The notes under the pieces: generated by a model
What the model saw: only the letters and a program-made list of their open reading frames with translations
The model's database searches: none
Told to the model about the DNA's origin: nothing
Assembly: GCF_963921235.1 (NCBI RefSeq)
Contig: NC_086107.1
Coordinates: 113,524,001 to 113,588,000, forward strand
Direction: 5' to 3'
Origin: Mobula hypostoma
Taxonomy: Eukaryota
Length of the DNA stretch: 64,000 bases
Program-made: the position numbers and the translations under genes
Shown: piece by piece, positions 15,554-55,495 of the stretch
Numbering within the stretch: the first letter of the stretch is position 1
Layout: every line of letters begins with the position of its first letter

Positions 15554-15633
15554 CAGGGGTTCCCAACCTTTTTTATGCTTTGAACCAATGTCATTAAGCA
15601 AGGGACCAGTGGACCACAGGTTGGGAACCCCTG
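15554..15633. mobile_element. About 80-bp hAT MITE; related copies at about 18540, 22450, 38270 and 63100
   Basis: TIR CAGGGGTTCCCAACC...GGTTGGGAACCCCTG. Confidence 0.75.
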
Positions 15634-23489: not shown

Positions 23490-24050
23490 ATCATAGAAAA
23501 GTACAGGACAGAAACATGCCCTTTGGCCCATCAAATCCACACTGATCCATTTAAACTGCACTGGGACCAGAGCCCTCCATACCCCTACCATCCATGTACC
23601 TATCCAAACTTCTCTTAAATGTTGAAATCGAGCTCACATCCACCACTTGTGCTGGCAGCTCATTCCACACTCTCATGAACCTCTGAGTGAAGAAGTTTCC
23701 CTCATGTTCCCCTTAAACTTCTCACCTTTCACTCTTAACCCATGACCTCTAGTTGTAGACCCACCCAACCGCAGTGAAAATCTCATTTACCTTATCTAGA
23801 TTTGTCCCTCATAATCTTGTATATCTCTATCAAATCTCCTCTCAGTCTTCTACATTCCAAAGAATAAAGTCCTAACCTGTTCAGTCTTTCCTTATAACTC
23901 AGGTCCTCTAGGCCCAGCAACATCCTTGTAATTTTCGATGTACTCTTTCAACCTTGTTTACATCTTTCCTGTAGGTAGGTGACCAAAACTGTACACAATA
24001 CCCCAAATTAGGCCTCACCAATGTCTTGTACAACTTCAACATAACATCCC
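23490..24050 (-). mobile_element. CR1 3' fragment
   Basis: [19 protein letters not shown] remnant. Confidence 0.8.
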
Positions 24051-27000
24051 ATCTCCAGTTTCGAACATTTCCTCTCTCCCAGCTCAGAACACTGACCCCA
24101 ACATCCCGCACCACCATGCCACACCCTACAAGAATTTAGTTACAATAATACAATATCTTCATGAAATAATTATAAAGGACAACTTAGTTCAAAGTATTAT
24201 ATAGAAACAATAAAATGGCCTAGTGTGGGGGTTAATACCGAAAATCAAAGCCCGAAATTTGATCAGAGGTGATGGGTGCTACACTAGCGTGTTTACAGTT
24301 CGGGGCATCAGAGTTCAGAGTTCAGAGTTCAGTTCTGGTGCCAGAGCAAGAGTTAGTTAAAGTAGATTGTAGATTTGGACTCTAATTCAGATTTATGATG
24401 TGCTCTAGTTCTGGTCTCTCTTTCTTGTTACTACCTTTGGGCGATATTTGAATCGAGGCAGCCTGCGCAGATAATGAACACGGAGCTGAACTAGGCCTCC
24501 ACAAACAAGAGAAAATCTGCAGACGCTGGAAATCCCAGCGACACACACAAAATGCTGGAGGAACTCAGCAGGCCAGGCAGCATCTGGCAAGAGCACAGTC
24601 GATATTTTAGGCTGAAACCCTTCCACGGGGCTCTTTGCCTTTTGATTTTGTGTTTTATATTCTGTGTTTTCGCTCTTTTTCGTCGCAATTTGCTCGTGAT
24701 GGGGAGGAGGAGGTTTTGGTGGTTGATGTTTTTCTTTGGGCAGGTTCCATGGTTCTTATTTTGTGACTGTCTGTGAGGACGACAAATCTCAGGGTTGTAT
24801 ACTACATACATACTTCGATAAGAAATGTACTTCAAATCTTTGAATCTGTAAGGAGTCTCTGTACGTCCTCCCTGTGGAATGCGTGTGTGTCCTCCCACAG
24901 TCCAAAGATGTAGGTTAACAGGTCATTGTAACTTGTCCCATTGTTAGGTTAGGGTAAAATCAGGGTAGTTGGGATTTGCTGGGCGGCACGGCTTATAGGG
25001 CCAGAAGGGCCTGTTCTGTATCTTTAAATAAATGAAATAAAAAGACCAGAAGGTGAAGCCTGTTGACCGAGGCCTTGGGTCTATGAGTCCAATGTCCACT
25101 GGAGACTCGAGGATCTGCGGCCTGTCGTGGGGCTGAAGGACTGTGTGGGTGGTTGGGAGGGAGGAAGGGGAGTTTTGTTCTGTGAACATGGTGAACATGC
25201 TATGTTGGCACCAGAATCTGTGACCATATTTGTGTGCTGGTTTTTCAAAGGTTCAAAGATTCAAAGTACATTTATTGACAAAGAATGTATGCATTATACA
25301 ATCCCGAGATTTGTCTGAGATAGCCGGTCAAGATGGTGCCGGTGAATAACGCTTCCTCAGGCGACATCTCCAGGTAGTCCACAAAACTCTCTTTTTCACT
25401 TCTTCGATGTCTTCTTTTCATTTGCAATGTGTTTCTGAAACTGTTGGAGCCTGCAATTTGCAGTTTGGAGATTGACTGAGCAATCTAGCGCTTCGCTGTC
25501 TCAGAGAAACTTCCAAGAGGGGAGGATCCTGATTGGCTGACTCATGTTCTAAGTTGGACAACATGGCTCCTTATCTTTAGCCGAAGCCGAAACATTCTTC
25601 CCAGCATGGCACACAGCTTTTACGGAAAACTGCTAATATAAACTACCTCACAGCATCGCATTGGAATATTAACCAGGGAATTACATGTTTCAGAGAGAAT
25701 GGAACACACAGTGATCTCTGTTTATGCTCTCCGCAGTAAGTTCAAGGCACGAGACATGTCAGATGCTGGAATCTGCAGCAAAGAACAATCTGCTGGAGGA
25801 GCTTTGTGTTTGGGCAGGGGAATATTTTGGGTCTTGGTACACAGTTTCAAGCAGAAACATCAATGGTTCCTTTCCTCACGTAGATGCTGCTTGACCCGCT
25901 GGGTTCTCCCAGCAGCTGGTGTATCACTCCGCAGTAGTGTAATGTAATCTCGTCCAACAACGAGAAATTGGACCTGAAGCTGGTGTATCACTCTGCAGAA
26001 GTGTAACGGGTGCGACCCAAACTCGTCCAACAACGAGAAATTGGACCTGAAGGTTCGAGAAAGAGGCATAAAACTTGTAGCTTACTCAGTGTGACAAGAG
26101 AGGAAAACGATCAAGAAAGACAAGCCAAGAGAACGAAAGAAAAGACATGTTCTGTGGTCGTCTCAAACTGAGGCAAGAGAAAACAAAAATTACAGTGATA
26201 AACGATTGATAAAACCACCAGATTCAGTTAGCATTAGATACCTGTGGTGACCTATGAGGGTAACACACACAAAATGCTGGAGAAATCGGCAGGTCAGGCA
26301 GCATCTATGGAGGGGAATAAACAGTGAATAATTCAAGACCCTTCATCAAGACTGGAAACAAGGGGGGCAGAATGCCAATTAAGAAGGTAGGGAGAAAGGT
26401 GATAGGCAAGACCTGTTGAGGGGGAAGGTAGGTGAGAGAGAAAGGGGAGATGAGGTGACAAGGGGAGGTGATAAGTAGAAGAAATAAAATGCCGTACAAG
26501 AAGGAATTTGATAGGAGATGGGATGGACAGTCATAGTCATACTTTATTGATCCCGAGGGAAATTGGTTTTCGTTACAGTTGCACCATAAATAATTAAATA
26601 GTACTAAAACCATACATAATTAAATAGTAACATGTAAATTATGCCAGGAAATAAGTCCGGGACCAGCCTATTGGCTCAGGTTGTCTGACCCTCCAAGGGA
26701 GGAGTGTAAAGTTTGATGGCCACAGGCAGGAATGACTTCTTATGACGCTTAGTGTTGCATCTCGGTGGAATGAGTCTCTGGCTGAATGTACTCCTGTGCC
26801 CACCCAGTACATTATGTAGTGGATGGGAGACATTGTCCAAGATGGCATGCAACTTGGACAGCATCCTCTTTTCAGACACCACCGCCAGAGAGTTCAGTTC
26901 CATCCCCACAACATCACCGGCCTTACGAATGAGTGAGGTGAGGGGAAGGGGAAAGGAAGAAGTGAGTGGGCCACTGGAAGACAGGGTGATGTCAGAAGTG

Positions 27001-32019: not shown

Positions 32020-35000
32020 GGAGCATTGTACAAAATCTGTGACATTCTTCAGGTACTATCTTTACAACTTGTAAAACACAAACTGAATTTGTTAATATTT
32101 ATAACATACATCAAACTTTACTGTCTATTAAAATTACATTTTCAAATATAGATATTGCTGTATGAAACTGACAAATTAGCAATAATTAACCATTCTCAGA
32201 ATTACAAGAATAAATTTTGTTCCCACAAGTTTTCAATAATTTGTCATTCAAGCCCAGAGCTACGAGTATGTGGGTTAGTTGTACTCAGAGACAAAGAACA
32301 CTTCAAAGAGACGTAGAACACTTCAGCACAGAAACAGACACGTCGGCCCATCCAGCCCACGCTGGACTGTTAACCCACCTACTCCCGTTGACCTGCACTG
32401 ACACCATAGCCCTACTCACTCAAAATTCTCTCAAATATTGAAATCAAACCCACATCCACCACTTGCGCCAGCTGCTCGTTCCACACTCTCACCACCCTCT
32501 GAGTGAAACAGTTCCCCCTCGGGTCCTCTGAGACACTTCACCTTGCACCTTTAACCTATGACCTCCAGATCTGGTCTCACCCCAACCTTAGCATGGAAAA
32601 AGGCCTATTTGCATTTACCCAATCTATACCTTTCGTAAATGTGTATACTTCTGTCAAATCTCCACACATCCTCCTACGCTCCAGGGAATAAAGTCCGAAT
32701 TGAAAATTATGGCGAGGTTCAGGAAAAAATGGAAAACAGAACAAGGCAATAAGTTTTGAGGCTTTGTTACTTGAGGCAGAGTAGAGCATATTTGGAGTAC
32801 TGGTCATCCCACTATAGGAAGGGTGTGGAGACCTCGGAGAGTGTGCTAACGAGGTTTACCAGGATGTTGCCTGGATTAGACAGTTAAAGCTACAAGGAGA
32901 GGGTAGACAGACTCTGAACTGAGGAATGGTCTGCGAGATTAAAGACAATCTCTTTGTTATTTCCATCTGCCTGTCACCCCTCCTCACTTGGGTCAACCTA
33001 TTGCTTGCTGGTTCTTGCTCCACTCCTTCCCCTCACCTCTCGACAATTTTAAAAGATTAGCTTTATTTGTTACATGTACGTACATCGAAACAGCGAAGTG
33101 CTTCACATCATAAGCATGGGAAAGTCTGCAGAGGATGGAAATCCAGAGCAGCACAGACAAAATGCTGGAAGAACACAGCAGGTCAGGCAGCATCTACGGA
33201 AACGAAGAGATCGTCAATGTTTCGGGCCAAGGCCCTGCTTCAGGAATGGAAAGGAAGGGAGAAGATGCCCCAGTAAAAATGTAGGGAGAGGAGAAGGCGG
33301 CTGGCTGGAAGGCGACAGGTGAAGCCAGGTGGGTGGGAAAGGTAAAGGGCTGGAGAAGAAGGAATCTGATAGGAGAGGAGAGTGGATCACTGGAGAAAGG
33401 GAAGGAGGAGGTGATAGGCGAGTGAGAAGTGGTAGGAGGCCAGAGTGAGGAGTAGGAGAGGGGAGGGAGAGAGAAATTGCCTGAGGCTGTGCCAGAGGGC
33501 AACACACAAGTCCATGCTTCCGGTGCCAAAATATCATATTCACAACTTATTAAACCTAGCCCTTCCTTCTTCGGAATGTAGGAAGAAACTGTAGCACCTG
33601 GAAGAGACCTGCGGAGTCGCGGGGAAAACATACAAAGCCCTTACAGACATGTTGGGAATTGAACAGCAAACCCCCTGGGTAGAATTTTAAATAGAGCAGG
33701 CATATTTCCCCTGATGAAAATATCAAATACTAGAGGTAATAGCTTATGTGGAAGGGGAAAAGTTTAAGGAAGATGTGTGGGACACGTTTTCTTTTAGAGA
33801 GTGTTGGCTGCTTCAAATCCAGGAGGGATTGTTGGAATTGGTTGTTTTTATGCTTTAGTAAGGTGTAAGTTGAATTAATGATTTGTTAGCAATTCTAGTT
33901 TACTCGAAGTTCTTAACTTGTATATTTTCACAATATGTAGTTTTGCCTCCCTCTACTGGTGGCAAAGCAGTACAGCAGTCACATAACAATTTATCACCTT
34001 TTCATTTTCCATTGGCCAAGTGTTAGCATACAACTGACTGTGTATCTTTTAATTGGCCCTTTGTTCATCTCAGGAATTTGCCGTAGCTCAGTATACAAGT
34101 GGCAGTCTGCAAAAATTGGCATCTTATCTTTGTCTTTGCCTTAGGCTTTGTCTCTTCAGTCTCATGTTCTGTTCCTGGTTTTTGTTTAAACTATAAAATA
34201 GGTGACCGTGAAGCAACAAGTTTTCACTCATTCTTGAACTCTTAAAAGAACCTGGAACCCGGGGACGAAAAATTACCAGAACCCACAGGCGGTAGCAGGG
34301 TACGGTGAGACAGTTATAAGGCTTTTTGACTGGCACATCGGGTGGCATAGTGCCTCACAGTACCAGCAACCCGAATTCAATTCCCACCGCTGCCTGTAAG
34401 CAGTTTGTACGTTCTCCCCGTGACCGCATGGGTTTCCTTCGGGTGCTCCGGTTTCCTCCCACAGTCCAAAGACCTACTGGTTGGTAGGTTAATTGTAAAT
34501 TGTCCTGTGATTAGGATATGATTAGATCAGGGCGTTGCTGGGCAGCATGGCTCGAGGGGCAAAAGAGCCTATTCTGCACTGAGCCTCAACAAAAATGAAA
34601 TGTGCAGGGAATGGAGGGATAGGGATCTTCTGCAAGCAAAGGGGTTTAGTTTAATTAGAAGTTGTAGACCTTTCCTGTGTTGTACTGATCTGCATTCTAT
34701 CGTCACCCCAGCAGTGATCTCATCATCACTGAGACCAGAGCAATGGGCCCGTAACCTGGTTACCACACTGGGACCAGACCATACCTCTCTGAGGCCTTAT
34801 CTACACTGCACCCTCGAGAGTGGTAACGCTCTCAACCATCGCACGGACTGATGAAAAGTTCAGATTCAGATTTATAGCTTGCGCGTACAGTGAAGCGCGC
34901 CTTTTGTGTTAATGACCAGCACACCTAAGGATGCGTTTGGGGCAGCCCGTAAGCACCGCCACACATTCAAACGCCGGCGTCGCTGGCCCACAATACTCGG

Positions 35001-35593: not shown

Positions 35594-36869
35594 CTATTTA
35601 ATTAAGGTTGCACAGTTGACTGTGTGATCAGGAATACGAGGGAGCTCTGACAGGGTTGACAGCATCTGCTGGGGTTGATGGGATCTGCTGGGGTTGATGA
35701 GGTGACACTTTCCTCCGGAAGTCCCAACATCCGTTGGCACGTTTCTGGTTTGTGGGAGATGGTGGGAAGTTGACTTTTGTGATTCCATTGGTCTTGGAAG
35801 GAAGCAATAATCTCCGATTTGTTGGAAGTGAATGGGTTTGGCTCCTTGCTGGTAAAGAATGACCTCTGGGGTCTCACTGTTCTCCGTGTCGGTGAGAGGG
35901 GGCTGCCCTTGCTCCTTGCCCAGCAGCTTCTGACAGTCCATTTGGTGCTTGGGCAAGGAATGTCCTTCTGGAGAGTGGCTGATATCCATAGTTTGAGTCG
36001 AAGGGTGGTACCCCAGCCCCAGGTGAGAATCAGCCAGGAGGCTTTGGACTTTGAGCTCGGTGGCTGTGGGGAGTGTGGGGGCCATTTTCACGTGACTCTC
36101 TTCCCCCGGAGGACTCAGCACGTAGCCACTACAAGTTGCTGGCCAGGGTGCGGCCGTGGGATGGTCCTGTGAGGCCAGGCTTGCGTCCTGGGTGCTTTTA
36201 CCCTCCCACGTTGAATCCTTGCACTCTGGCCCATGACTGGACGAGGTGACCTGCAGGCTGGCCGCGCCTGAAACTGGCCGGGAGACGCCCGTGCCTTTCA
36301 CCTGAAGGTCACTGGCGGCAGCGTCCAGCACAGGCGCGCGGGCAGAGTCGGCGGGCGAGGAAAACGTGACGTAGCTGGAACCGGAGTCGTGCGGCGGCTG
36401 GACTGGTTTCTCACCGGACAGTGCCCCCGCGTCCGTGTGGAGATAATAACCTGGCGCCTTTGACACCGCGGGAGGATTCAGGACGTAAGCATTGGAAGGC
36501 ACAGACGGGGTCGGCTTGGCACCACTCTGATCTGTTGCTGCTGCCCCTTCCGAGGGGAGCTTCACGTAGCCGGGAGCGTCCGGCCCTCGCCTGAAATAGT
36601 TCGCATTTTTGCTGGTCGCTGTCTTTATTTCCGTAAGAACGGTCAGGAAGGAAGAAATATCTTGACAATTGAACAAATAGGGGCCATTGTAGTTTGCTGG
36701 CTCACTCTGTGACACCTGGGGCTCAGGGTAGTCTGCTCCAGTAGTCAAAGATGTTCCCGTCTCTGGTGATAAACCCCGGTACCCTTCCTCTTGCTTGCCG
36801 CTCCGGCTTATCACGGGGGAAGAAGAATGGTCCTGTTTCTCCTCCTTCGCGGGGTATTCAGCTTTTATC
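35594..36869 (-). CDS. CSF2RB: CSF2RB-like last coding exon, about 424 aa cytoplasmic tail
   Basis: Acceptor attgttctgcag, phase 2, inside ORF 35594..37045. Carries beta-c hallmark motifs NGPYL, GYVKLP and QQIGDYCFLP. Confidence 0.95.
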
Positions 36870-37954
36870 CTGCAGAACAATAGGGTAGAAAACTTAGTAA
36901 ATCTTTGCCACAAGTTGCCAATAATTCTGATATCTACAATTTTGTCTCTCCTGCTCGGTAACGTTATTGCAGATTGTTGGTGAGGACGCATTGTGTTCAG
37001 ATTTGATCTCTCTGCTGTAGGGAAGATGCCACCAAGCTGGAACAAGAGTTCAGAGGAGATTTTTACAAGGATGTTGTCAGGCCCAGGGGGACTGAGTTAT
37101 GGACAAAGGCTGAGCATATTTGGACTTTTTGTGCTGGAGCCTGGGAGAATAAGGGTGATCTAATGGAGGTATAATAAGACCACAAAGGGGGCAAAGCTAG
37201 GCTGAACGCACACAGTCTTTTTCTCAGGGTTGGAGAATCAAGAACTAGACTCTGTGGCCACTTTATTGGTTACACCGGTACACCAGCTCGTTAATGCAAA
37301 TATTTAATCAGCCAATCATGTGGCAGCAACTCAATGCATAAAAACATGCAGGCTTGGTCAAGAGGTTCAGTTGTTGTTCAAATCAAGCATCAGAATGGGG
37401 AAGAAATATGACTTTGACTGTGGGATGATTGTTGGTGCCAGATGAGGTGGTTTGAGTATCTCAGAAACTGCTGATCTCCTGGGATTTTCACACACAACAG
37501 TCTCTAGAGTTCACAGAGAATGGTGCGAGAAACAAAAATAACAGCCAGTGAGCGGCAGTTCTGTGGGTGAAAATGCCTTGTTAATGAGAGAGGTCAGAGG
37601 AGAATGGCCAGAGTGGTTCAAGCTGACAGGAAGGTGACAGTAACTCAAATAACCACACGTTACAACAGTGGTGGGCAGAAGAGCATCTCTGAATGCACAA
37701 CACATCAAACCTTGAAGTGGATGGGCTACAGCAGCAGAAGACCAGGAACATACACTCAGTGGCCACTTTATTAGGCCCAGGACGTACCTTTGAGTGTAGG
37801 CTGAGGACGGGGGTGGGGGGGGGGTCGGGTGGCAAATTTAATAGAAACCTGAGGGACACTTTTATCTCCTAGGGAGTGGTCATTACATGGAATGAACTTC
37901 CAGAAGTGTTTGAGACAGGTACATTAACACCATTTAAAAGGTACTTGGACAGGT

Positions 37955-38225
37955 CCCAGTCCTCCAGACTCAAGGGGTTCAACTCAGGGTTAGCAACCCT
38001 GACTGGCCAAACAAAACTGTTGCTGAAACAGCGATGAAGAACTTTTCTCCATCTGGCTGCACTGAAGGGTGGAGGAAACATGGCAGACCAAAGACAACTT
38101 GGCGCCGTACAGTAGAGACAGAAATGAGGACCCTGAGCCACACCCGGGACATGATAGAGGAGGTGGCCAAGGACAGACAGAGATGGACGACCTTCATTGC
38201 TGCCCTAAACGACAGTGGGGTAAGG
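37955..38225 (+). mobile_element. RTE-clade LINE remnant
   Basis: GRPKTTWRRTVE...AKDRQRW, typical of the RTE ORF C-terminus. Confidence 0.75.
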
Positions 38226-38446
38226 GACAGACCACTGGCCAGGTACATAGACAGGAAAGGTAGAGAGCTCAGGTTCCCAATCCTTTACTTAATGCTATTG
38301 GCCCAGGGTACAAAAAAGTTTGGGAACCCCTGGAAGTACATTTTTCGAAAATTTTCCCTTTAGTGGAGCTCTGGTACAAAGTTTAAAACAACATGGCGGG
38401 CGTTGTCTGCCCGCTACACGGAACCTGGAGTGAATCAGGGACCTAC

Positions 38447-38559
38447 CTTGGGATAACCTGAGTAGAGACAGTGGTCGATTCCGCGGCCACCAGTTTGCAG
38501 ATGCTGCCTTCTTCCAAAGTCACCGGCTCTATGGCTGCCGGAGGTCTCAATGGGCTTGG
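38447..38559 (-). CDS. CSF2RB: CSF2RB-like penultimate exon (PSPLRPPAAIEPVTLEEGSICKLVAAESTTVSTQVIPR)
   Basis: Strong acceptor cctttccctttcag and donor gtaggt; 113 nt, phase 0 to 2, exactly bridging the Box1 exon and the last exon. Non-repetitive sequence. Confidence 0.8.
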
Positions 38560-38584
38560 CTGAAAGGGAAAGGATTAGACAGAT

Positions 38585-39180
38585 GTTATCAGGCTGGTTA
38601 AAGTTGTCTTACCTGGAGGAGGTAGTGGGGATAAGCTCCCACTACCTATTAAATGCTCCCAATCGTGTGTATCTCAAACAGCCTCTGACAACCGAGTCCA
38701 GCTCCTGGCCTTCACGTGTGGCTTAGAACTGTTTCTACTGACAGGAGAAGGGGCAAAGACGGGTTACTGGTGCCTCAAAGCCAGTCACTTCGGGCAGATA
38801 GGGCTCGTCAGCCGTGGTTGGCAGCTCGTCTGGCAGAAGGAAAACGCTGATCTCAAGCCTCCTTTCCTTTGCGCCTATACCCACTCATGGGGACGGCTTT
38901 GGGAGTAAACATCAAGGAAAAATACAGAGCTAGAATCGCTAAGGCAGCCTTATGTTGAATTCAGTGCTGACCAGTAACTCCTGCAACACTGCTGGTGCCA
39001 AACTGTATCGGTCTCTGCCGTTCCTTTGGGTTCATCAGATACGTGGAGATGGGGAGCTTGCTGCATGGGCGCCAGCTTGCTCTCCGTATCGTACCGCGCT
39101 TGCTTGTGTTTCATCTGGACAGCTAGGATGCAACATCCACGGTCAACCACGGCCAATGGAGGGCCACTAACAGGCTGCAC
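38585..39180 (+). mobile_element. RTE-type 5'-UTR-like repeat; partial minus-strand copy at 57945-58125
   Basis: Two homologous copies; GAAGGAAAAC motif and a structured 5' region. Confidence 0.5.
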
Positions 39181-40201
39181 TGAGGCACAGCTGCGTGTTC
39201 CAAGAAGTGTGGGGTGGGCCGGGCAGGCGACCTCCTGATCAGTATGTTCCTGAACCTGGACACCTTCAAAGTTCAAAGTAAATTTATTATTAAAGTACAT
39301 GTGTGTGTCACCATATCCTGCTCTGAGATTCATTTTCTTGCAGGCATTCACAGTATAACAGAGAGATACAATAGCATCAATGAAAGACTACACACAAATG
39401 AAGGCCGACAAGCAAATAATATGAAATAGAATACAAAAAAGACCAATGGTGGAAGCACAAGACAAACAAATAACTAATACTGAGAACGTGAGTTGTAAAG
39501 TCCTTGAAAGTGAATCTATAGGTAGCGGAATCAGTTCAGTGTTGAGATGAGTGAGTGAAGTTATCCACACCGGTTCAGGAGCCTGATGGTTGAGGGGTGG
39601 TGACTGTTCCTGAATCTGGTGGTGGTGCGGGGTCCTTGATGATGGACGCTGCTTTCCTGCGACAGCGCTCCACGCAGATGTGCTCAACTGGCGGGGAAGC
39701 CTTTGCCGCGATGGAGTGAGCTGTGTCCACCACTCTTTGTTGGCTTGCCCGCTCACGGGTACGGACAGTGGGCAGTTGGGGGCTCTGCCTGAGCCAGCTG
39801 CTTGTCTCTCTCTCCTGGGCATCCATCCATGCTGGCCTGTCCCCGGAGAGGGAGCACACATTGTCCATGGGTACGAAGGGGGCCTTCTGATGGTTGCTAC
39901 AGGTGTACAAATGTATTCAAGGCTGAGTGTTTTATAGTTCGTAAGTCGTGTGAATTGTGTAGTATTTATTTATCTTACTTTCAGATACAGAACAGGCCCT
40001 TTGGCTCTTCGACTCACGCCGCTAGTAACTCACTGATTTAACTCTAACCTAACCACAGGACAATTTAACAATGACCAAATTACCTACTAACTGGTACATC
40101 TCATGACTAAACACAAAATAATCTGCAGATGCTGTTGTCAAAGGAACACTCACAATGCGCTGGAGGAACTCAGCAGGTCAGTCAGCATCAGTTGAAAAGA
40201 T

Positions 40202-40239
40202 TAGTCGACGTTTCGGGCCGAAACCCTTCGTCAGGACTG
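40202..40239 (-). ncRNA. Minimal type-I hammerhead ribozyme motif, sense to the CSF2RB pre-mRNA
   Basis: Minus strand reads CAGUC-CUGACGA-A-GGGU(UUCG)GCCC-GAAA-CG-UC-GACUA; predicted cut between 40207 and 40206. Confidence 0.72.
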
Positions 40240-41212
40240 AAGGAAGAACTTTGGGGAGGGTTTGAAGAATGCTGGTAGTTGAAAAAAACGGTGATTTGAA
40301 AGACAAAGGGATGGGGGAGGGGAAGCATGGAGGTGATTGGCAGGAGAACAATGCGCAGTAGTAGGAGGCGGAACTATGAAGGAGGTGATGTGAAATAGGG
40401 ATAGAGGAAGGGAGGGGGAGGGAATTACTGGAAGTATTATCTTATGACTGTGGGAGGAAACTGGAGAACCCGGAGGAAACCTGTGCATTCCGCGGGGGGG
40501 GGGGAGGGGGGCGGACATACAGACTCCTTGCAGAGGATAACAGATTTGAATTCTGAACCCCTGACACCCCAAGCTTCAGTAGCATCGCAGTAGCATACCA
40601 CTGTCATAATATGATGCTGAAATCACTAAATAAACTTCCTTTGGAAGGAGAAAAGGACTGTGGGCTCCGGGTGTTCGTGGGCTGACAAGTCACCAGGTGA
40701 GTAACCTCTCTGAGATTCCACTCTGTCACTGATAAAGCAGTGGGTGCCCGTACTCAGGTCCAAAACAGTTGGCCTCAGTCACTTCGTCATTAGACGTAGG
40801 CGAGAGAGAGGAAACGGGAGCAGATTATTGACTACAGCAGGAGGAAAACGGAGGTTCACGAGCCGTCCTAATCAGGGGATCAGAGGTGGAGAAGGTTACT
40901 GACTTCGTGTGTGTTATCACTCGGAGGACATGCCCTGGGCCCAGCACATACGGAGAAAGTGCTGCAGCACCTCTACTCCCTCAGAAGTTTGCAGAGATTC
41001 AGCACGACGTTTAAAACTTTGACAAACTTTTACAGGTGTGTAGTGGAGAGCCTATTGACAGGCTGCATCACGGCCTGAATGGAAATGCCTTTGAACAGAA
41101 AATCCTACAAAAAGTAGTGGATACGGCCCGGTCAATCACGGACGAAGCCATCCCCACCACTGAACACATCCACGTGGAGGTGGAGTGTTGTTTTAGGAAA
41201 GTAACTTCCATC

Positions 41213-41775
41213 CCCTCTGTCCGCCACAACAGACAGGATCTCCCGGTAGCCACCCACTTCAACTCTGCTTCCCACTCCCATTCAGATATGTCCATACATG
41301 GCCTCCTCTACTGCCACGATGAGGCTAAACTCAGGTTGGAGGAGCAACACCTCATATACCGTCTAGGTAGTCTCCAGCCCCTTGGTATGAACATAGAGTT
41401 CTCCAACTTCCAGTAATTCCCTTCCCTTCCTTCCCCCTATCCCTATGTCACTCTGCCCCCTCCCCCAGCTGCCTATCACCTTCCTCATGGTTCCGCCTCC
41501 TTCTACTACCCATTGTGTTTTCCCCTATTCCTCCTTCACCTTTCCTGCCTATCCCCTCCCTGCCTCCCCTACCCCACCCCTTTATCTTTCCCCTTACTGG
41601 TTTTTCACCTGGAACCTACCAGCCTTCTCCTTCCCACCCTCCCGCATCTTCTTTATAGGGCCTCTGCCCCTTCCCTCTTCAGTCCTGACGAAGGGTTCCG
41701 GCCCGAAACGTCGACTGATCGTTTCCACGGATGCTGCCCGACCTGCTGAGTTCCCCCAGCGTGTTGTGAGTGTTG
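41213..41775 (+). mobile_element. Penelope-like element 3' fragment (GIY-YIG C-terminus plus terminal repeat) inserted in a Rex/Babar fragment
   Basis: PVATHFNSASHSHSDM...RLEEQHLIYRLGSLQPLGMN; flanking duplication CTTCCATC at 41205-41212 and 41776-41783. Confidence 0.85.
41680..41717 (+). ncRNA. Minimal type-I hammerhead ribozyme motif in a Penelope terminus
   Basis: CAGUC-CUGACGA-A-GGGU(UCCG)GCCC-GAAA-CG-UC-GACUG: 5-bp stem I, intact core, predicted cleavage after 41712. Confidence 0.75.
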
Positions 41776-43269
41776 CTTCCATCATCAGGGACCCTCCCTC
41801 CCCCACCACCACCCAGGACATGCTCTCTTCTCACTGATGCCATCAGGAAGAAGGTAACGGAGCCTCAGGACCCACACCGCCAGGCTCAGGAACAGTTATT
41901 ATCCCTCAACAATCAGGCTCCTGAACCAACGGGGATAACTTCACTCAACTTCACTCAACCATCAACACAGCCTCTGGACTCACTTTCAAGGTCACTTCAT
42001 CTCAAGTTCTCGATATTTATTGCTAATTTATTATTATTAATTCTTACTTTTTCTTTAGTATTTGCACAGTGTGTTGTCTTTTGTGCATTGGTTGTTTGTC
42101 TGTCCTGTAGGGTGCTGTCTTTCACTGATACTATTGCATTTCTTTGTTCTACTGTGAATGCCAGCAAGAAAATGAATCTCAGAGTGACATTTAATTTGAA
42201 CCTTGAACTTTGAGTATGTCCTTGTGGCTCTTTGAGCCACACCACTCCAACAACCCCACAATGCCGATTAACCCAAGCCTAATACAGAGGAGATGTCGGG
42301 GTAAGTTTTTTTATGCAGAGCGTGGTGAGTGCGTGGAATGGGCTGCCGGCAACGGTGGTGGAGGTGGATACGATGGAGTCTTTTAAGAGACTCCTGGATA
42401 GGTACACGGAGCTTAGTAAAATAGAGGGCTACGGGTAACCCTAGGTAATTTCTAAGTAAGTACATGTTCAGCACAGCATTGTGGGCCGAAGGGCCTGTAT
42501 TGTGCTGTAGGTTTTTTTCTATGTTTGTATGTTTCTATGTTTCTAATCACGGGGCAATTTACAAAGAACAATTAATCTACCCGGTGTGTCTAATTTACAA
42601 AGAACAATTAATCTGCCTGGTGTGTCTTTGGACTGTGGGAGGAACCCTGAGCACTTGGGGAAATCCCATACATTTCGAAGGGAGGATGTACGGAGACTCC
42701 CTACAGAGGGTGCGGGATTGAACTCTGATCCCCAGTGCCCCGAGCTGTAACAGTGTTGCGCCAATCACTACGCCACTGTGGCGCCTATTTATATACCGTG
42801 TATGCAACTGTATATCACATATACCATTCTGGTCACTGCTTTATAGGGAGGCTGTCGAGGATTTGGAGAGGGTGCAGAAGAGGTTTACCAGGAAGTTGCC
42901 TGGTTTAGAGAGTATGCGTTATCATGAAACGTTGGACAAACTGGGGGTTGTTTCTCTGGAGCACCGGAGGCTGAGGGGAGATCTGATAGAGGTTTATAAG
43001 ATTATGAGAGGCAAAGTTAGAGTAGACAGGGAGTATCTCTTTCCCAGGTTGGGAAAACCAGAGGGCATGCTTTGATGGTGAGAGGGGGTAATTTTAAAGG
43101 AGATGTGAGAGGCAGGTTTTCTTACAGAGGGTGGCTGGAATACGCTGCCTGGAATGTGGTAGAGGCAGAAACGTTTGGGACTTTAAGCGACGTGGACTTT
43201 CCCTTGGCAGCCTGGAGTCCCCACGCTGGATAAACCATGGGGTCCCCTGGTGCTTTGCAAGACTTTTAC

Positions 43270-43339
43270 CTGTGTTCCCAAGTGGAAGAGTTTACTCTTG
43301 GCAGGGTCCGGAATGCTTTCCAACCACAACCTCTTCTTC
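43270..43339 (-). CDS. CSF2RB: CSF2RB-like Box1 exon (RKKRLWLESIPDPAKSKLFHLGTQ)
   Basis: Acceptor ctttgcggcag and donor gtaaaa; 70 nt, phase 2 to 0. JAK-binding Box1 W-x-x-x-IPDP-x-KS (human WEEKIPNPSKS). Confidence 0.93.
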
Positions 43340-46993: not shown

Positions 46994-48495
46994 CGGCGGT
47001 CCCCAACCACCGGGCTGCGAGGAAACGATAGGAGTCAGCTGCGCCTTTCCTCGTTCCCCGTCACGCAGTGTTGAGCCATTACGCACACAAGATCTTTACC
47101 CGAGTGTCATCCATGTCATCGCGGGAAGGAGATCAACTCCTCGAGCTTGTGACAACGGGCTGAAAAGTATGTTTGATATAACATCTCTGCCGGCATTCCG
47201 GATCAAAGTCAAGGCTAAATATCCTGAGATAGCCACGAAAGCACTGAAAACGTTGCTTCCATTTCCAACATATCTCGGCAATGAATGTAACGAAAACTAA
47301 ATTGCGGAACAGACTGGACATAAGGAACCCCCTTCGAGTATCGCTGTCTCCCATCACCCCTCGACGGCACCTTGTTGCAGGAAAACAAGCCCAGGGCTCC
47401 CACTGATTCAGCGATATTGGTGTGTTGCAATGATTTTATATGTTAATACAGGGAAAATATGTGCTGTGTGTTTAATATCCAAACATTACTTAAAATGTTA
47501 TGATGCTATTGACTTATAAGTGACGTATATAACCATATAACAATTACAGCACGGAAACAGACCATCTCGGCCCTTCTAGTTATACTCTATTCTTGGCTGG
47601 TGCAACTGTAACGAAACCCAATTTCCCTCGGGATCAATAAAGTATGACTATAGTCCGTGCCCAACGCTACTTCCACCTAGTCCCACTGACCTGCACTCAG
47701 CCCATAAACCTCCATCCCTTTCCTGTCCATATACCTATCCAATTTTTCTTCAAATGATAACATCGAACCTGCTTCTGCCACTTCTACTGGAAGTTCGTTC
47801 AACACTTACTTCCAGCTCCCTGGTCTTCCCCTGATAATTGACTTATCACTATATTCATGCGAGGAAAATATGCGCTGCGTGTTTAATGTTAAATTCGTTA
47901 GATAAACCCTTTTAGAAACGAAATTGAGTGTATTAGCCGTTTATCACCTATATTCCACTCGTGATTAACACCCTCCCCCCGAACAGAATCGCCAAAAACG
48001 ATTTATAGACAAAAATCAGCACGTACACGCATAGCGTTACGCATGCGCACTGGTGCCCGCGCAAGGCTTCATGGCCATTGTAGTCTTATTCCGGGTAACC
48101 ACAACTTATTGGACTGAAACAACAGGAATTCTGCAGATGCTGGAAATTCAAGCAACACACATCAAAGTTGCTGGTGAACGTAGCAGGCCAAGCAGCATCT
48201 CTAGGAAGAGGTGCAGTCGACGTATTTGACTGAGCCGCATCCTTCATCCTGACGAAGGGTTTCAGCCTGAAACGTCGACTGTACCTCTTCCTAGAGACGC
48301 TGCCTGGCCTGCTGCGTTCACCAGTGTTGCTTGAATTTCCAGCATCTGCAGAATTCCTGTTGTTTACGTATTTGACTGCTTCTCTTGTCCGTTAGCAACC
48401 CTACGCGCCCCCCCCCCCCACCGGGGTCAGCCAGTCCGCAAGAATATTGTCAATATTAAACCGGTCCGCAATGCAAAAAAGGTTGGGGACCCCTG
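46994..48495 (+). mobile_element. hAT-Charlie deleted element with nested insertions
   Basis: TIRs CGGCGGTCCCCAACC and GGTTGGGGACCCCTG; perfect 8-bp TSD ACCTAATT; dimerisation-domain remnant KYPEIATKALKTLLPFPT...QAQGSH. Confidence 0.88.
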
Positions 48496-49287: not shown

Positions 49288-50357
49288 AAAAAAGACATTA
49301 AACAGTCTTGTATCTTACTATTTATATGAACCCAGATCTGTAGGGCTGTTCATGGAGTTTGCCTGCCTGTAAAAAGCACTCTGTTTAAAGCTCTATCACT
49401 GGAAGAACATGCCAAGTGTGAAGAGGGAATGATCCGAAGTCTCTGCAGAAATGCCACATCCCTACTGATTCCTGGGATCCCTCACCCCATGGCCAGGCAG
49501 AGTGGGGAAGGAGACTTAGGATGGATATTCCAGCATCAAGGTCACGAGCCAGTAAGCTGCAGGACCCACCTAGGCAGTGGAATGAGTCCACCCTGTCCGA
49601 GACCACTCAGCCCATCACGCATAGCATGTCCCCTCGCTCCGTGGAAGACTCTGTGGTCCCCGTACTGTCCCCATCAACCACTTCGTAATCTGGAGACTTG
49701 GCATGGAAGCAAGTCATTCTCAGTGGCAAGGGGCAGCAGAAGGAGAAGATTGGCAACGAACATAGCCCAAGGTTGTCTATCCTACACCCTGTTATACCCT
49801 TCCCTGTCAGAACCTTATTGCATTATTAGACCATACGACACAGGAGCAGAATTAAACCATTCGACCCATTGAATCTGCTCTGCCATTCCATCATGCCTGA
49901 TTTATTTTCCCTCTCAACCCCATTCTCTTGCCTTCTCCTCATAATCTTTGACGCCCTGGCTAATCAAGAACCTATCAACCTCCGCTTTAAATGTACTCAA
50001 TGACTTGGGCTCCACAGCTGCCCGTGGCAATGAATTCCACAGATTCACCACCCTCTAGTTAAAGAAATTCCTCCTCATCTCTTTTCCAAAGGAACATCCT
50101 TCTATTCTGAGGCTGAACCTTCTGGTCCCAGACTCCCCCACTATAGGCAACATCCTCTTCACGTCCATTCTGTCTAGGCCTTTCAATATTCTGAAAAGAC
50201 TTTGAAAGTCACTGTAGCCTGGGGAGGACTTTCGGGTCATCAAGGGAATGGCGGCGTAAGGAAAAGGTCTCTCGACAAAAAAGAAGGTAAACTGCCCCAA
50301 AATCGAATTTAGACAAATACTTAATATTGCATAACTATATTAATAAAAGGGGCAAGG

Positions 50358-51344
50358 ATGATGTCTAAGAACAAGAATAAAAAGTCCGCTCTGAAGGCTG
50401 ATAAACATAAAGAGATGCAGCAAGGCGAAGGGCCTAGCTCCCCCACGGCAAGCCAGGACGGAGATAATGAGGGGGAATCGGTGACTTTGTCTTTGATTCT
50501 CGGAGAGATTCGCGAGTTCCGACAAGATAACAGCAAACAGCTGGAAGATATTAAAGGAGAAATAGTAAAAACTAACTCGCGGATAGATGAAGCCGAAGTG
50601 AGGATTGTTGGAATTGAAGAGAAGCTACAAAATGCCGAGGAAGTGATAGCAGAAATGCTGAAGCTACAAGACCAACTCCAGTGGAAACTAATAGATCAAG
50701 AAGGCCGCTCGAGAAGGGAAAATGTGAGGATCTACGGAGTTCCCGAAGGAACCGAAGGTAAACCCGGATTGATGATTCCCTTCGTGGAGAAGCTGCTTAG
50801 AGAGAACCTTGATATACCGGCCGCAAAAGACCTACAGATAGAAAGGGCTCACCGTGCGTTGGCACCACAGTCTCCGGCAGGCACCCAGCCCAGATCGATT
50901 CTGATCAGATTTCTCAGTTACAGAACGAAGGAAGAGGTGCTTAAAAGAGCATGGCAAAAGAAAGGTTTCATGTGGAACAACTGCAAAATCAGTTTAGACC
51001 ACAACTACGCACCGGGGATTCTTGCCGGACGGAAAGAATATACGGAAACACGGAGAGTCCTGAAGGAAAACAACATCAGATTCCAGACCCTGTATCGAGC
51101 TCGGCTGAGAGTCTTTTACTACGAAGGGACAAAAACTTACGCTACGGTGGAGGAGGCAACGTCGGACCTGGCGGACCGGGGACTACCTATTAAAGTTATC
51201 ACCCAACCGGAGTCGCTACTGGAGAGGATTCGGCAGAAGTCGTGGCAGTTAGTGGGGCGAGGACGCTCCACTCGAACCAGTGTGTCAAACTACAAGGAAA
51301 AGCTGCAAATATTCAGACGCGAATGTACAGAGAATACGGATTAA
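50358..51344 (+). CDS. L1 ORF1p (coiled coil plus RRM/Transposase_22-type domain), intact, 328 aa
   Basis: Motifs EGRSRRENVRIYGVPE, IERAHR and PRSILIRFL are typical of L1 ORF1. Confidence 0.9.
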   Translation: MMSKNKNKKSALKADKHKEMQQGEGPSSPTASQDGDNEGESVTLSLILGEIREFRQDNSKQLEDIKGEIVKTNSRIDEAEVRIVGIEEKLQNAEEVIAEMLKLQDQLQWKLIDQEGRSRRENVRIYGVPEGTEGKPGLMIPFVEKLLRENLDIPAAKDLQIERAHRALAPQSPAGTQPRSILIRFLSYRTKEEVLKRAWQKKGFMWNNCKISLDHNYAPGILAGRKEYTETRRVLKENNIRFQTLYRARLRVFYYEGTKTYATVEEATSDLADRGLPIKVITQPESLLERIRQKSWQLVGRGRSTRTSVSNYKEKLQIFRRECTENTD

Positions 51345-51706
51345 TTAAGAGAAATGACTGAAAAGAGTAAATCGGACTTAAAAGTAAAATGAAAACTGGT
51401 AACTGAAAATAATCTAGGCGGAATAACTTGAATGATAGCAATATGGTCGAGACATAAATAGGAGAAAATTCTCTATGATTACTCAAACTGCTGAGGGCCC
51501 TCTAACACAGGGTGAAGATAGAGGTTATCCCTCTGAACTGAGGCGGGTCGGTGCTCAGGCCTCACTGTGGGAAGTCGGGGAAAATTTTCAAATGTTATAC
51601 GTTCAGAAATGTCTAGGGTGTGGTTATATGTCTTGGTTTACTGTTGAGAAGGGATTGCTTACTGTTTGGTTAGAAAAGGAGAGTGCTTTTTTTCTACTAG
51701 AGAAAA

Positions 51707-54700
51707 ATGCAAACTGAATTGGTAAAAATAATTTCCAATAATGTTAATGGGGTTTTGAATCCAATTAAAAGAAATAAGATTATGTCTAAATTGAAAAAAG
51801 AGAGGGCACAAATAGCTTTCCTCCAGGAAACACATATGAGCCAATCTGAACATGGAAAATTAAAAAGAATGGGCTTTAAGCATGTATTTTATTCATCATA
51901 TAAATTGAGTCACAAAAGAGGGGTAGCTACTTTAATATCAAGTACTCTTAATTATGAACATATTTCAGAGACTAGAGACAAAGAAGGACGGTTTGTAAAA
52001 ATCACAGGAAGAATAGAAGGTACAGAAATAACATTGCTGAATGTTTATGCTCCTCCAGGTAGTGAATGGTCATTTTATAGACACATTTTTGACCTAATGG
52101 TCAGTTCTCGAGGGGTAGTAATTTGTGGAGGGGATTTTAATATTAGATTAAATCCTATATTAGATTCTTCAAGAATAGTTACTCAGAATAAACCTCTGAC
52201 TCGGAAAGTGAATTCATTGATGGAGGAGTTGGGAATTATAGATGTCTGGAGGGAATTACACCCTACTAGTAAAGATTATACATATTACTCTTTCCCTCAT
52301 TCAGCCTATTCAAGGATAGACTATTTCTTTATCTTTAATACAGATAGACTCAGGATAAAAAACTGTAATATTGCAACAATTGATCTGTCGGATCATAGCC
52401 CAGTCTCTATGTCTCTAAACCTGGAAAGGAAAATGAGGAAAACACTATGGAGGCTAAACTCACATATACTTAATAACCCAAAAGTAATGGAGAGATTAAG
52501 GGGAGAAATCAAAGAATATCTAGACCTTAATGACACGGGAGAAACATCACCAGTGATTTTATGGGATACATTGAAAGCTGTATTGAGAGGGAAAATTATT
52601 TCCATTACTACTCACATGAAAAAAATCAATGCACAAAAATTAGCAGACCTTCAAGGAAAATTAAAACAACTTCAAGTTGGAGATAGCAACAAAAGTAATT
52701 CAAATCGAAAACAGGAAATTAGGAAATTGCAAAGTGAAATTGATGATATTTATACGTTGGAAACTCAAAGAAATTTTCTTTACCTGAGACAAAAGAATTA
52801 TGAAGTAGGAGGTAAATCAGCTAGATTATTAGCATATAAATTACGAAAACAACAAGCAGACAATACAATTCATAAAATAAAGAATCCAAAGACAAAGCTT
52901 GTGGAGAGTACAATAGGGAAAATTCAAGAGGGTTTTGAAACGTATTATCGAGAGCTGTACTCCCAACCCCGGGCCCCCAGTGAGCCCTATATAGACAGTG
53001 TATTGAATTTTTTAGATCTACCTAAACTTACAGATTTACAAAATGAAAGTTTATTAGAACCAGTAACTGTCAAAGAACTGAACGTGGCCATCTCTAGGTT
53101 AAAGGCTGGAAAGTCCCCGGGTTCTGATGGGTTTACCTCAGAGTGGTACAAGTCCCTGAAGACACAGTTAGCCCCATTACTACTTAACACCTTTAATTGG
53201 ATCTTGCAGAGAGGAGAAACTCCACCTTCCTGGAGAGAAGCGATTATTTCAGTTATTCCTAAAGAGGGTAAAGATAAACTAGAATGTGGCAATTATCGGC
53301 CAATTAGTGTTCTTAATTTAGATTACAAACTATTTACATCTATATTAGCGCGCAGATTGGAAAAGCTTTTACCTGGCCTAATCCATTTAGACCAGACTGG
53401 ATTTATTCAACAAAGACAAACACAGGACAACATAAGGAGAACTCTGCACATATTAGAACAGGTTAATAAGAACGAGACAGAGACAATGGTAGTAGGATTG
53501 GACGCTGAGAAAGCTTTTGATTCGCTTAGTTGGGCATTCCTATACAGAGTGTTAGGAAGATTCGGCTTTCAAGAAAGGTTTATTAAAGTAATTCAGACTC
53601 TGTATGACAGCCCAACAGCCCAAATTAAGATAAATGGGGACCTCTCTGACTCCTTCATTTTAGAGAGAGGCACTAGACAGGGATGCCCAATTTCTCCTCT
53701 CCTTTTTGCACTATATATTGAACCACTTGCCCAACTAATAAGACAGAGCGAAATTGTAAAAGGTATCAAGGTGGCAGGGATTGAACAGAAAGTGGCGTTA
53801 TTTGCAGATGATGTTTTGGTCTATCTGAGTGAACCAGAAAAATCATTTATAGGATTGTTTACACTGTTGGATGACTTTGGAAAATATCAGGTTATAAAAT
53901 AAATGTAAAGAAAACGCAGGTTATGTCCCTAAATTATACACCATCCAAAAAATTGCAGGATACATACGATCTTAAGTGGGAAGCTAAATCATTAAAATAT
54001 TTAGGAATAACCCTGCCGAAGGATCTTTCAACACTGTCACAGGTAAATTATGGGCCATTAATCTCAGAGATAAAAGCAGATATGCATAGATGGAATCTTA
54101 TCCCCTTTTTAAGTTTAAATTCAAGGATAAATACTATAAAAATGAATATTCTTCCTCGGTTATTATATCTTTTCCGTACTTTACCAGTGGAGGTGGATGA
54201 TAATCAATTCAGGGAATGGGACAAATGGATTTCCCGCTTCATTTGGCAAGGAAGGAAACCTAGAATTCGATATAACACCTTACAGTTAGGGAAAGAAAGA
54301 GGAGGTATGGTTCTTCCTTGCCTGAGAAATTATTTTTATGCCTCATAGATAACCCCTCTGTTATATTGGTGTAATAGGGAATATAAGGCTAGATGGAAGG
54401 AAATAGAATTTGGATTAGTTGACAGTTTTCCTCTTCAGGCCTCAATAGCTGACAAAGGATTGATGGCCCAGTTGGAAAAATTTAATAATGCTTGGATAAA
54501 TCTTACATTAAAAGTATGGCAGAAGGTGGTTAATTCATGTGGAATTAATAACATGCTAAAACTCTTTAGATGGTGTGCATATGATACCGAATTCTTTCCC
54601 AACAGAGGAGATAAAAGATTTGAGCTATGGATAAAGAAAGGTCTTACAACCTACCTCTCATTTATAGATAAAAGAGTATTACAAAGTTTCCAAATCCTGC

Positions 54701-55495
54701 AGGACAAACATGGCCTAGAACATAATGACTTTTTTAGGTACCTTCAAATACGAAACTATGTTAACCAGAGTTGTAGATATACAGACCTATCAACAGTAGA
54801 ATTAAGAATTTTTCAAGATTCTGAATTTGGCTTGCAGTTTAATACCTAGTAAATCAGTTTCTCGCCTATATAATGCACTCTCCCATGCTAAAAATGTAAA
54901 TACACTGTATATTAAAGAGAAGTGGGAGAAAGAAGCGGGGTTGGTACTTTCAGAGGAGGCTTGGGGGGAAATCTGCAGCTTTCAATGGTCCTCGACTAAT
55001 TCTTTGACTTGGAGAGAACATTGTTGGAAAAACATTATAAGATACTTCAAGACCCCATATCAGGAAAAATATAAAGATACAAATGTGATGTGTTGGAGAA
55101 GGTGCGGCTCCAAGGAGGCAAATCATTTTCATATTTTCTGGGATTGCCCTAAATTAAGTCTATTTTGGGAAGGTATTCATAGAACATTAGTTAAGGTACT
55201 TAGGTCCCAGATACCTCTGAACTTTGAGACGCTCTATTTGGGGCATGTATTGTTCCTTGAACAGAAGGAAGATATAAAGTTGCTGCAGGCCCTCTTAGCG
55301 GCAAGTAAGAAATCAATCACTAGAAAATGGCTAAATCCAATACCACCTACATTAGAAGATTGGTACGAAATTATCTTGGAAATATTTAAAATGGAAAAGT
55401 TGACCTACTCCCTGAGAACTCAAAAAGAAACATTTTATCAAATCTGGAATAAATGGATTGAATATATAACCCCAATGCGAGCAGACTTTAGATGA
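51707..55495 (+). pseudogene. L1 ORF2 (APE endonuclease, RT, CCHC), disrupted
   Basis: LQETH, GGDFN, SDH, NYRPIS, GTRQGCP, FADD and CWRRC...HIFWDC are present. Frameshift near 53882, in-frame TAG at 54346-54348, second frameshift near 54805. Confidence 0.92.

What the first reader, a model, noticed from the sequence alone, without database searches (positions are those of the whole stretch)
41213..41775. Penelope 3' end linking a GIY-YIG remnant to a perfect hammerhead: the source of the ribozyme family
Seen: the Penelope endonuclease C-terminus, a pyrimidine tract, then CAGUC-CUGACGA-A-GGGU(UCCG)GCCC-GAAA-CGUC-GACUG at 41680-41717. Stem II loops differ between copies (UCCG, UUCG, CUCG) while the pairing and core are retained, as expected for selection on structure in active parent elements. 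This copy is inverted relative to the 40202 copy 1.4 kb away in the same intron, so the two could base-pair in the pre-mRNA and mask the sense ribozyme (inference).
Basis: partly seen in the sequence, partly recalled or inferred. Interest (0 to 1): 0.7.

Follow-up and report, generated by a model that had tools for sequence, protein, structure and literature searches.

The report
Truncated Penelope retroelement with minimal hammerhead
This is a cut-short copy of a very common jumping gene in a ray's genome, carrying a small self-cutting-RNA motif already known from such elements; it is an offspring of the family, not its source, and nothing found suggests it affects the gene it sits in.

Summary
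The sequence is as described. 41213-41775 is a 563-bp, 5'-truncated insertion with an 8-bp target-site duplication. It holds the last 66 codons of a Penelope-like (probably Neptune) GIY-YIG endonuclease, an 82% pyrimidine 3' UTR, a hammerhead motif (41680-41717) and a 58-nt tail. The motif is not a 'perfect' hammerhead: helix III is only the ACGU palindrome, i.e. the dimer-dependent minimal hammerhead described in Penelope-like elements in 2014. Its monomer is predicted to fold into a core-occluding rod. Family-level origin from Penelope ends is right; this copy is a dead daughter with private substitutions, and only 3 of 33 termini in the window share its tail type. Among 18 aligned copies no pair shows a compensatory change. 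RNA-type contigs place both copies in one spliced intron (38560-43269) of a minus-strand CSF2RB-like gene, so this copy is antisense. Co-folding predicts it fully pairs with the 40202 hammerhead, but 31 of 33 termini have an inverted neighbour within 1.6 kb, and spliced mRNA is present. The scan has noted this family many times elsewhere in this genome. New member of a known kind; low interest.

The parts
41205..41212 (+). Left target-site duplication (CTTCCATC)
   Evidence: three paralogous copies of the host LINE in the window carry the site once, uninterrupted
41213..41416 (+). 5'-truncated remnant of the PLE ORF: C-terminal 66 codons of the GIY-YIG endonuclease (second His, conserved Glu and Asn; GIY/YIG triplets missing), stop TAA 41414-41416
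   Evidence: other copies continue upstream in frame from 41211 (loose ends)
41417..41679 (+). Pyrimidine-rich 3' UTR (263 nt, 82% C+T)
   Evidence: aligns with gaps to the 40109-40438 copy (66% over 373 columns including the terminus; alignment)
41680..41717 (+). Minimal type I hammerhead motif: helix I 5 bp (6 with 41679/41718), core CUGACGA, unpaired A, helix II 4 bp with UCCG loop, GAAA, ACGU palindrome in place of helix III; predicted cleavage after 41712
   Evidence: definition from PMC4209133
41718..41775 (+). 3' tail of the element; ends 63 nt past the predicted cleavage site, as does the 15917 copy; predicted imperfect hairpin
41776..41783 (+). Right target-site duplication (CTTCCATC)
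40109..40438 (-). Inverted sister copy: last codons of the endonuclease, shorter UTR, minimal hammerhead 40239-40202, tail about 35 nt longer; 11-bp TSD with one mismatch; sense to the host pre-mRNA
38560..43269 (-). Host intron (4710 nt) of a CSF2RB-like gene, holding both copies
   Evidence: spliced joint in runs X4, X2, X6; gene identity
41093..41895 (+). Older dispersed LINE-type 3' remnant into which the element inserted (flanks examined: 41093-41212 and 41776-41895)
   Evidence: 5 and 8 blastn hits in the window, 3 places where both flanks are contiguous; LINE label is by inference

Best explanation
A dead-on-arrival, 5'-truncated insertion of a high-copy Penelope-like retrotransposon (probably Neptune clade) of a ray. 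Inferred mechanism, from the PLE literature: the parent's RT-endonuclease protein nicked the target with an 8-nt stagger, began reverse transcription inside the element's RNA 63 nt downstream of an UNCLEAVED hammerhead (a second start about 35 nt further on gives the longer tail of the sister copy), and stopped after 563 nt, inside the endonuclease coding region. The hammerhead is the minimal type I form that works, slowly, only as a dimer in tandem parent elements and possibly with protein help. Here it is single, antisense to the CSF2RB-like pre-mRNA and decaying; pairing with the 40202 copy is a by-product of repeat density. Shown: TSD, truncation, protein kinship, motif anatomy, intron and strand, two tail lengths. 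Computed: monomer rod, inter-copy duplex. Inferred: clade, insertion mechanism, inactivity.
For: 8-bp TSD and three empty-site paralogues; 76-95% identity to the C-terminus of ray RT+GIY-YIG proteins whose linker reads C-x(3-4)-C-xx-C (diagnostic per PMC8557442 passages); family contigs run on upstream from 41211 (9 contigs in X4, 5 in X3) and differ from this copy in 96-100% of depth at 41482, 41571, 41647 in all 4 runs; motif fits the min-HHR definition, single motifs inactive in vitro (PMC4209133); 3' ends at +63, +63 and about +98 match the 30-40 nt optional tail and internal RT start (PMC11167929); 33 termini in 64 kb, mostly decayed, 53 of 139 differences being CpG-type transitions; monomer rod -16.4 vs open core -12.4 kcal/mol, active dimer -23.7 vs two monomers -32.8; intron is spliced out in two organisms.
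Against: This is the best-preserved hammerhead in the window (1 of 13) and the 40141/41677 pair is the second-strongest of 28 inverted pairs; three young copies would give an inverted pair this close in only 7% of random placements. Nearest-neighbour energies omit core tertiary contacts. No cleavage was measured; no genome was available, so copy number, orthologous presence and strand bias were not tested. Neptune versus Nematis was not tested by phylogeny.
Confidence: 0.86

Rival explanations
1. Selected antisense mask: the 41213 copy, transcribed first in the minus-strand pre-mRNA, pairs with and silences the sense 40202 hammerhead, protecting CSF2RB transcripts from cleavage.
For: Same intron, antisense copy 5' of the sense copy; co-fold of 40100-41790(-) gives 249 inter-copy pairs and P>=0.94 at 39 of 40 positions 40240-40201; 88 of 99 terminal bases identical; these are the only two descriptor-passing motifs in the window.
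Against: 31 of 33 termini have an opposite-strand terminus within 1.6 kb; random placement gives 0.32-0.54 per copy; the 40202 monomer is itself predicted to be a core-occluded rod with no intact same-strand partner in the part of the gene inside the window; single min-HHRs were inactive in vitro.
Confidence: 0.04
2. This copy, or its own subfamily, is the source of the whole hammerhead family in the window.
For: It links endonuclease, UTR and the most intact hammerhead in one piece; its 66 codons are open.
Against: No RT, no tandem partner, TSD at the truncation point; private substitutions against family contigs; only 3 of 33 termini share its tail type by inspection; a second endonuclease-linked copy at 21002 is only 135 of 167 bases identical and has a different UTR.
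Confidence: 0.03
3. In the parent elements the motif is kept mainly as a protein-binding or RT-positioning structure, with little or no catalytic role.
For: Integrated copies carry the uncleaved motif plus 63-98 nt; in the anole element hammerhead mutants did not affect insertion in vitro (PMC11167929); core no better kept than the tail; no covariation.
Against: All catalytic core letters are intact in 7 of 13 spanning copies across tail types; protein-assisted cleavage was shown for the anole element; an unchecked scan note (e1-7790562) reports a 63-bp insertion starting at the predicted cut.
Confidence: 0.2
4. The 41680 motif is active at this locus, on plus-strand transcripts, by dimerising in trans with the many family transcripts.
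For: All motif elements intact; family sequence is very abundant in the contigs laid (summed depth about 7,000-25,700 over 41180-41747 against 12-181 on the host exon; paralogues summed, RNA status a guess).
Against: The host gene runs on the minus strand; no plus-strand transcript of this locus is shown; dimer is 9 kcal/mol less stable than two monomers by nearest-neighbour energies.
Confidence: 0.04

Closest known systems
Minimal hammerheads (min-HHR) in the pseudo-LTRs of metazoan Penelope-like elements (Cervera & de la Pena 2014, PMC4209133; main-text parts 1-2 of 4 read, supplements term-searched, file 1 not searchable)
   Same: Type I topology, 5-bp helix I, unpaired base between positions 9 and 10.1, G10.1-C11.1, palindromic 15.2-16.2 with no helix III loop; mostly single, dispersed with truncated PLEs; opposite-strand pairs nearby already noted there.
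   Different: Helix II is 4 bp (the paper's Schistosoma examples have 7-8); host is a ray, and no shark, Callorhinchus or Leucoraja entry was found in the 2 supplement files searched.
Neptune-clade EN+ PLEs (Craig et al. 2021, PMC8557442, passages read)
   Same: C-terminal GIY-YIG endonuclease with CCHH residues and CX2-5CxxC linker in the near relatives; inverted 5'-truncated arrangements; optional 30-40 bp tail.
   Different: This copy holds only the last 66 codons; clade assigned by linker motif plus the report that only Neptune and Poseidon were detected in the vertebrates sampled (bioRxiv 10.64898/2026.07.22.740005, passage), not by a tree.
Poseidon element PAc of Anolis (Frangieh et al. 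2024, PMC11167929, parts 1-2 of 4 read)
   Same: Insertions carry the uncleaved hammerhead and end at two sites 30-40 nt apart downstream of it.
   Different: Different clade (no linker Zn finger in Poseidon); activity was measured there, not here.
Non-LTR retrozymes (bioRxiv 10.64898/2026.07.22.740005, part 1 of 5 and passages read)
   Same: Type I hammerhead, PLE-derived, reported in one chondrichthyan.
   Different: Retrozymes are tandem arrays with at least two consecutive hammerhead units; this is a single copy with ORF remnant.

Membership tests
EN+ Penelope-like element | C-terminal GIY-YIG endonuclease after an RT in one ORF | tested here: met
   Remnant matches the C-terminus of ray proteins with RT-like N-part and GIY-YIG match; met through relatives, the copy itself has only the last 66 residues
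EN+ Penelope-like element | Hammerhead in the terminal repeat, sense to the ORF | tested here: met
   41680-41717 on the ORF strand, 263 nt after the stop
EN+ Penelope-like element | Optional 30-40 bp tail; inverted 5'-truncated arrangements | tested here: met
   3' ends +63, +63, about +98 in 3 TSD-bounded copies; tail-to-tail inverted termini at 19249-19444 and 48150-48331
EN+ Penelope-like element | Tandem full-length arrangement with pseudo-LTRs (active form) | tested here: not met
   tblastn with two ray PLE proteins finds only two short endonuclease remnants in the window; expected for a truncated daughter, so it bears on activity, not on origin
Neptune clade | CX2-5CxxC linker and CCHH residues | tested here: met
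   Present in P0002, P0005-P0008, P0010; outside the remnant except the last His
Neptune clade | RT phylogeny with reference clades (Neptune vs Nematis) | not tested
   No labelled reference sequences were fetched
Minimal type I hammerhead | Core CUGANGA / GAAA / UH, helices I and II, palindromic 15.2-16.2 | tested here: met
Minimal type I hammerhead | Covariation among family members | tested here: inconclusive
   0 of 9 pairs with a two-sided change in 18 window copies; small sample of decayed daughters, so low power
Minimal type I hammerhead | Self-cleavage as a dimer | not testable with these tools
   Needs an assay; contigs cannot show RNA ends
Canonical (monomer-competent) hammerhead | Stable helix III; match to Rfam hammerhead models | tested here: not met
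   No helix III loop; no hammerhead among 4 Rfam matches at E<=1; monomer MFE pairs core with CGUC
Non-LTR retrozyme | Tandem array with two or more consecutive hammerhead units | tested here: not met
   Single TSD-bounded copy; nearest same-strand termini are kilobases away

The most novel reading that the evidence does not exclude
In genomes loaded with hammerhead-bearing Penelope ends, intact sense-strand intronic motifs persist preferentially where an upstream antisense copy sequesters them in a long duplex, so inverted pairs such as 41213/40202 in CSF2RB are a selected host safeguard (and possibly an A-to-I editing or splicing-modulating substrate), layered on a built-in self-masking rod fold that the element's protein must open.
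Probability: 0.04. Interest if true: 0.6.

Novelty: new member of a known kind. Interest (0 to 1): 0.15.

Why it matters
Little as a locus: it is one clean specimen of a known kind of element. It is useful as an anchor that ties a very abundant ray repeat to a Neptune-type PLE, and its two tail lengths repeat the internal-initiation signature shown biochemically for a Poseidon element. I found no paper on chondrichthyan PLE hammerheads in three targeted searches (listings only), so the family may be undescribed in detail, and a high-copy family would allow a statistical test of whether PLE hammerheads cut in vivo. If masking were selected, it would show hosts neutralising parasitic ribozymes with antisense copies, which would be new.

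Tried and rejected
No whole genome was held, so genome-wide consensus, copy count and R-scape-scale covariation were not possible. Pattern scans found 0 matches in metagenome contigs and genome contigs; protein-alignment scans confirmed 0 of 36 (metagenome) and 0 of 32 (viral) candidates, so covariation rests on window copies only. Rfam at E<=1: no hammerhead. Pfam on the remnant: none; a weak E=0.15 match on the longer 41015-41413 frame was ignored as noise. RNAalifold on the 18 copies predicted no pairs. A tail hairpin (5 pairs) showed no covariation, 71% of cells paired, below shuffles. Run search: no RNA holder listed on record; the runs laid are contigs guessed to be RNA and cannot show ends, strand or editing; no piled-up ends were listed, which says nothing on cleavage. 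Sequence look-up in earlier findings: nothing. Lunse et al. (PMC5785218) could not be read; only its title in a reference list and a review's summary were seen. I considered the 41015-41413 frame as a LINE-PLE fusion ORF and rejected it: its first half resembles another LINE remnant and the frame continuity across the TSD is incidental. Of the 34 profile hits two pieces of one interrupted copy were merged (33 termini); 18 of 33, chosen by eye as reaching into the hammerhead, were aligned; the other 15 are tail-only, internally deleted or weak, so the aligned set leans towards better-preserved copies.

Full report
Observation. The 38-nt motif is at 41680-41717 as quoted. A loose core pattern occurs 8 times in the window against 1.95 expected, with 0 of 100 shuffles reaching 8. 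A strict descriptor (core, helix II of 4 bp or more, helix I of 4 bp or more) passes two sites only, 41685(+) and 40234(-), against a mean of 0.01 in 100 shuffles. Upstream lie 263 nt of 82% C+T and an open 66-codon frame, 41216-41413, ending in TAA.

The insertion. CTTCCATC flanks the element at 41205-41212 and 41776-41783. The two flanks are contiguous, with the site once, in three other copies of the same older repeat in the window. So 41213-41775 is a single 563-bp insertion into an older repeat, which I take to be a LINE 3' remnant (inference).

The protein. The 66 residues found 12 proteins among 15 candidates, all from myliobatiform rays (Hypanus, Mobula, Hemitrygon), at 76-95% identity; several are host-gene models with a piece of this element attached. 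The longer ones contain RT-like sequence, a C-x(3-4)-C-xx-C linker, then the GIY...YIG region with CxxC. Five of 7 scanned match Pfam GIY-YIG weakly, below the curated cut-off. The remnant itself has no Pfam match and begins after both triplets. Craig et al. (PMC8557442, passages) give the linker motif as present in Neptune and Nematis and absent in Penelope/Poseidon; a 2026 preprint (10.64898/2026.07.22.740005, passage) lists Hydra, Naiad, Neptune and Poseidon as the groups it detected, the first two only in a coral. Neptune is therefore the likely clade; no tree was built. The species of the window was not determined.

Daughter, not source. The window has only two endonuclease remnants and no PLE RT. 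Contigs from other family members run on upstream from 41211 (9 in X4, 5 in X3), in letters that I read as the preceding endonuclease codons, and differ from this copy in 96-100% of depth at 41482, 41571 and 41647 in all four runs; 41423 differs in two runs only, and 194 further rows were not shown. A profile built from 11 window copies finds 34 hits, 33 termini after merging one interrupted copy. By inspection only three (41677, 40141, 15918) share this tail type. A second endonuclease-UTR-hammerhead copy at 21002-22583 is 135 of 167 identical over the coding part and has another UTR.

The ribozyme. After GAAA come only C, G, then UC: helix III would be two pairs with no loop. This is the minimal hammerhead of Cervera and de la Pena (PMC4209133, parts 1-2 of 4), in which the ACGU palindrome pairs between two copies; their single motif showed no cleavage and dimers little. 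A review passage agrees (PMC6765202). Rfam reports no hammerhead in the window. The monomer's predicted MFE (-16.4 kcal/mol) extends helix I by pairing core GACG with CGUC; the open-core fold is -12.4 and has probability 0.0008 as an exact structure. The cleavage-type dimer scores -23.7 against -32.8 for two monomers. These energies ignore tertiary contacts. With 100 nt of natural context the helices are not even the MFE (z -0.87).

Selection on structure. In 18 of 33 termini aligned, 82% of cells pair (helix II 93%, helix I 71%), no pair of 9 has a two-sided change, and 383 of 500 shuffles pair as well; RNAalifold predicts nothing. Core columns match the majority in 173 of 193 cells (89.6%), above loop II (71.8%) and the linker (69.4%) but not above the downstream tail (470 of 545, 86.2%; Fisher p=0.26; without CpG columns p=0.12). 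Seven of 13 spanning copies have an intact core; only 41680 has everything. Of 139 differences from it, 53 are CpG-type transitions. The test has low power, since these are decayed daughters.

Tail signature. The 41680 and 15917 copies end 63 nt past the predicted cut; the 40202 copy ends about 98 nt past it (boundaries; one search gave 97 with the end set at 40110). Frangieh et al. (PMC11167929, parts 1-2 of 4) showed for an anole PLE that RT starts internally at two sites that define a 30-40 nt optional tail, that uncleaved RNA is the main template, and that its hammerhead cleaves only with protein and is dispensable for insertion in vitro. The three ends here fit that scheme (inference, n=3).

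Host gene and masking. The exon at 35597-36868(-) matched 15 of 7999 scored candidates, best 68% to Hypanus cytokine receptor common subunit beta, 14 of them named as that receptor or IL-3 receptor beta-like. Eight exons lie on the minus strand from 62500 to 35657; the 5' part of the gene is outside the window. Contigs in X4, X2 (organism A) and X6 (organism B) join 38559 to 43270 and 36868 to 38446 with minus-strand GT-AG ends; X3 shows neither. Both copies are thus in one 4710-nt intron; 41213-41775 is antisense and is transcribed first, 40109-40438 is sense. Folding 40100-41790(-) gives 249 inter-copy pairs and P>=0.94 for 39 of 40 positions across the sense motif; the termini are 88 of 99 identical. 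It is not special: 31 of 33 termini have an opposite-strand terminus within 1.6 kb (many through the element's own inverted insertions), random placement gives 0.32-0.54 per copy, and 28 such pairs exist, this being second strongest. Against my reading, three young copies would be this close and inverted in only 7% of placements. The sense motif has a 4-bp helix I, is itself predicted to be a rod, and has no descriptor-passing same-strand partner in the window. Spliced mRNA exists; its efficiency cannot be read from contigs.

Novelty. Kind, anatomy and even opposite-strand pairs are in the 2014 paper. Three searches for chondrichthyan PLEs gave 0, 2 and 1 listings, none on this subject by title or abstract start; the 2014 supplements searched had no shark entry, one file was not searchable, the preprint's supplements are closed and Lunse et al. 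could not be read, so a prior description of this family cannot be excluded. The scan's own notes list 61 look-up matches in this genome, including the 40202 copy; these are unchecked and not counted as support. Verdict: new member of a known kind, interest 0.15.

Noticed in passing
window 21002-22583 (+): Second, older endonuclease-UTR-hammerhead copy with a different UTR, split by a roughly 900-bp LINE piece (about 21325-22230) and by a short insert in the tail (about 22450-22525).
   Followed up: partly
window 19249-19444, 48150-48331, 5678-5859, 15639-15779, 1447-1636: Termini in back-to-back inverted pairs a few bases apart, the inverted 5'-truncation pattern of PLE insertions; 19249/19343 forms the strongest predicted duplex in the window.
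   Followed up: partly
window 41685-41712 and sister copies: Core GACG can pair with the CGUC at the cleavage site, giving a self-occluded rod as monomer MFE in 4 of 4 natural copies folded; could explain a need for protein help.
   Followed up: partly
window 41730-41760 (tail): The 32 columns of tail downstream of the hammerhead are as conserved across tail types as the catalytic core (86% vs 90%); a candidate protein-binding or RT-positioning signal, without covariation.
   Followed up: partly
older copies, e.g. window 14377-14474 (+), 33147-33248 (-), 26260-26355 (-): In older tail types the linker reads as a pyrimidine run followed by AG then ATG, resembling a 3' splice site before a start codon; the young type at 41718-41733 lacks the AG.
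   Followed up: no
window 50325-55495 (+): Long L1-like element with ORF1 (339 aa, weak L1 RBD-like match) and a broken ORF2 (endonuclease and RT domains), antisense within a CSF2RB-like intron.
   Followed up: partly
window 35594-62500 (-): Eight exons of a CSF2RB-like gene; the last exon encodes over 400 residues and is 68% identical to the Hypanus protein. One run (X3) has a contig reading from the last exon into the preceding intron to 36950.
   Followed up: partly
proteins P0002, P0003, P0009, P0011-P0013: Several ray gene models (named DIPK1C, ATP synthase C3, VKORC1L1, ABHD14A, LAMP3, ULK1 isoforms) include pieces of this endonuclease: exonisation or annotation artefacts.
   Followed up: no
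window 10657-10717 (-): Weak tRNA-like match (27.6 bits, below the gathering score), probably a SINE head.
   Followed up: no
window 6132-6190 (-): A short terminus whose homology seems to begin at GACTG, the first letters after the predicted cut, followed by an internal deletion; boundaries not established.
   Followed up: no
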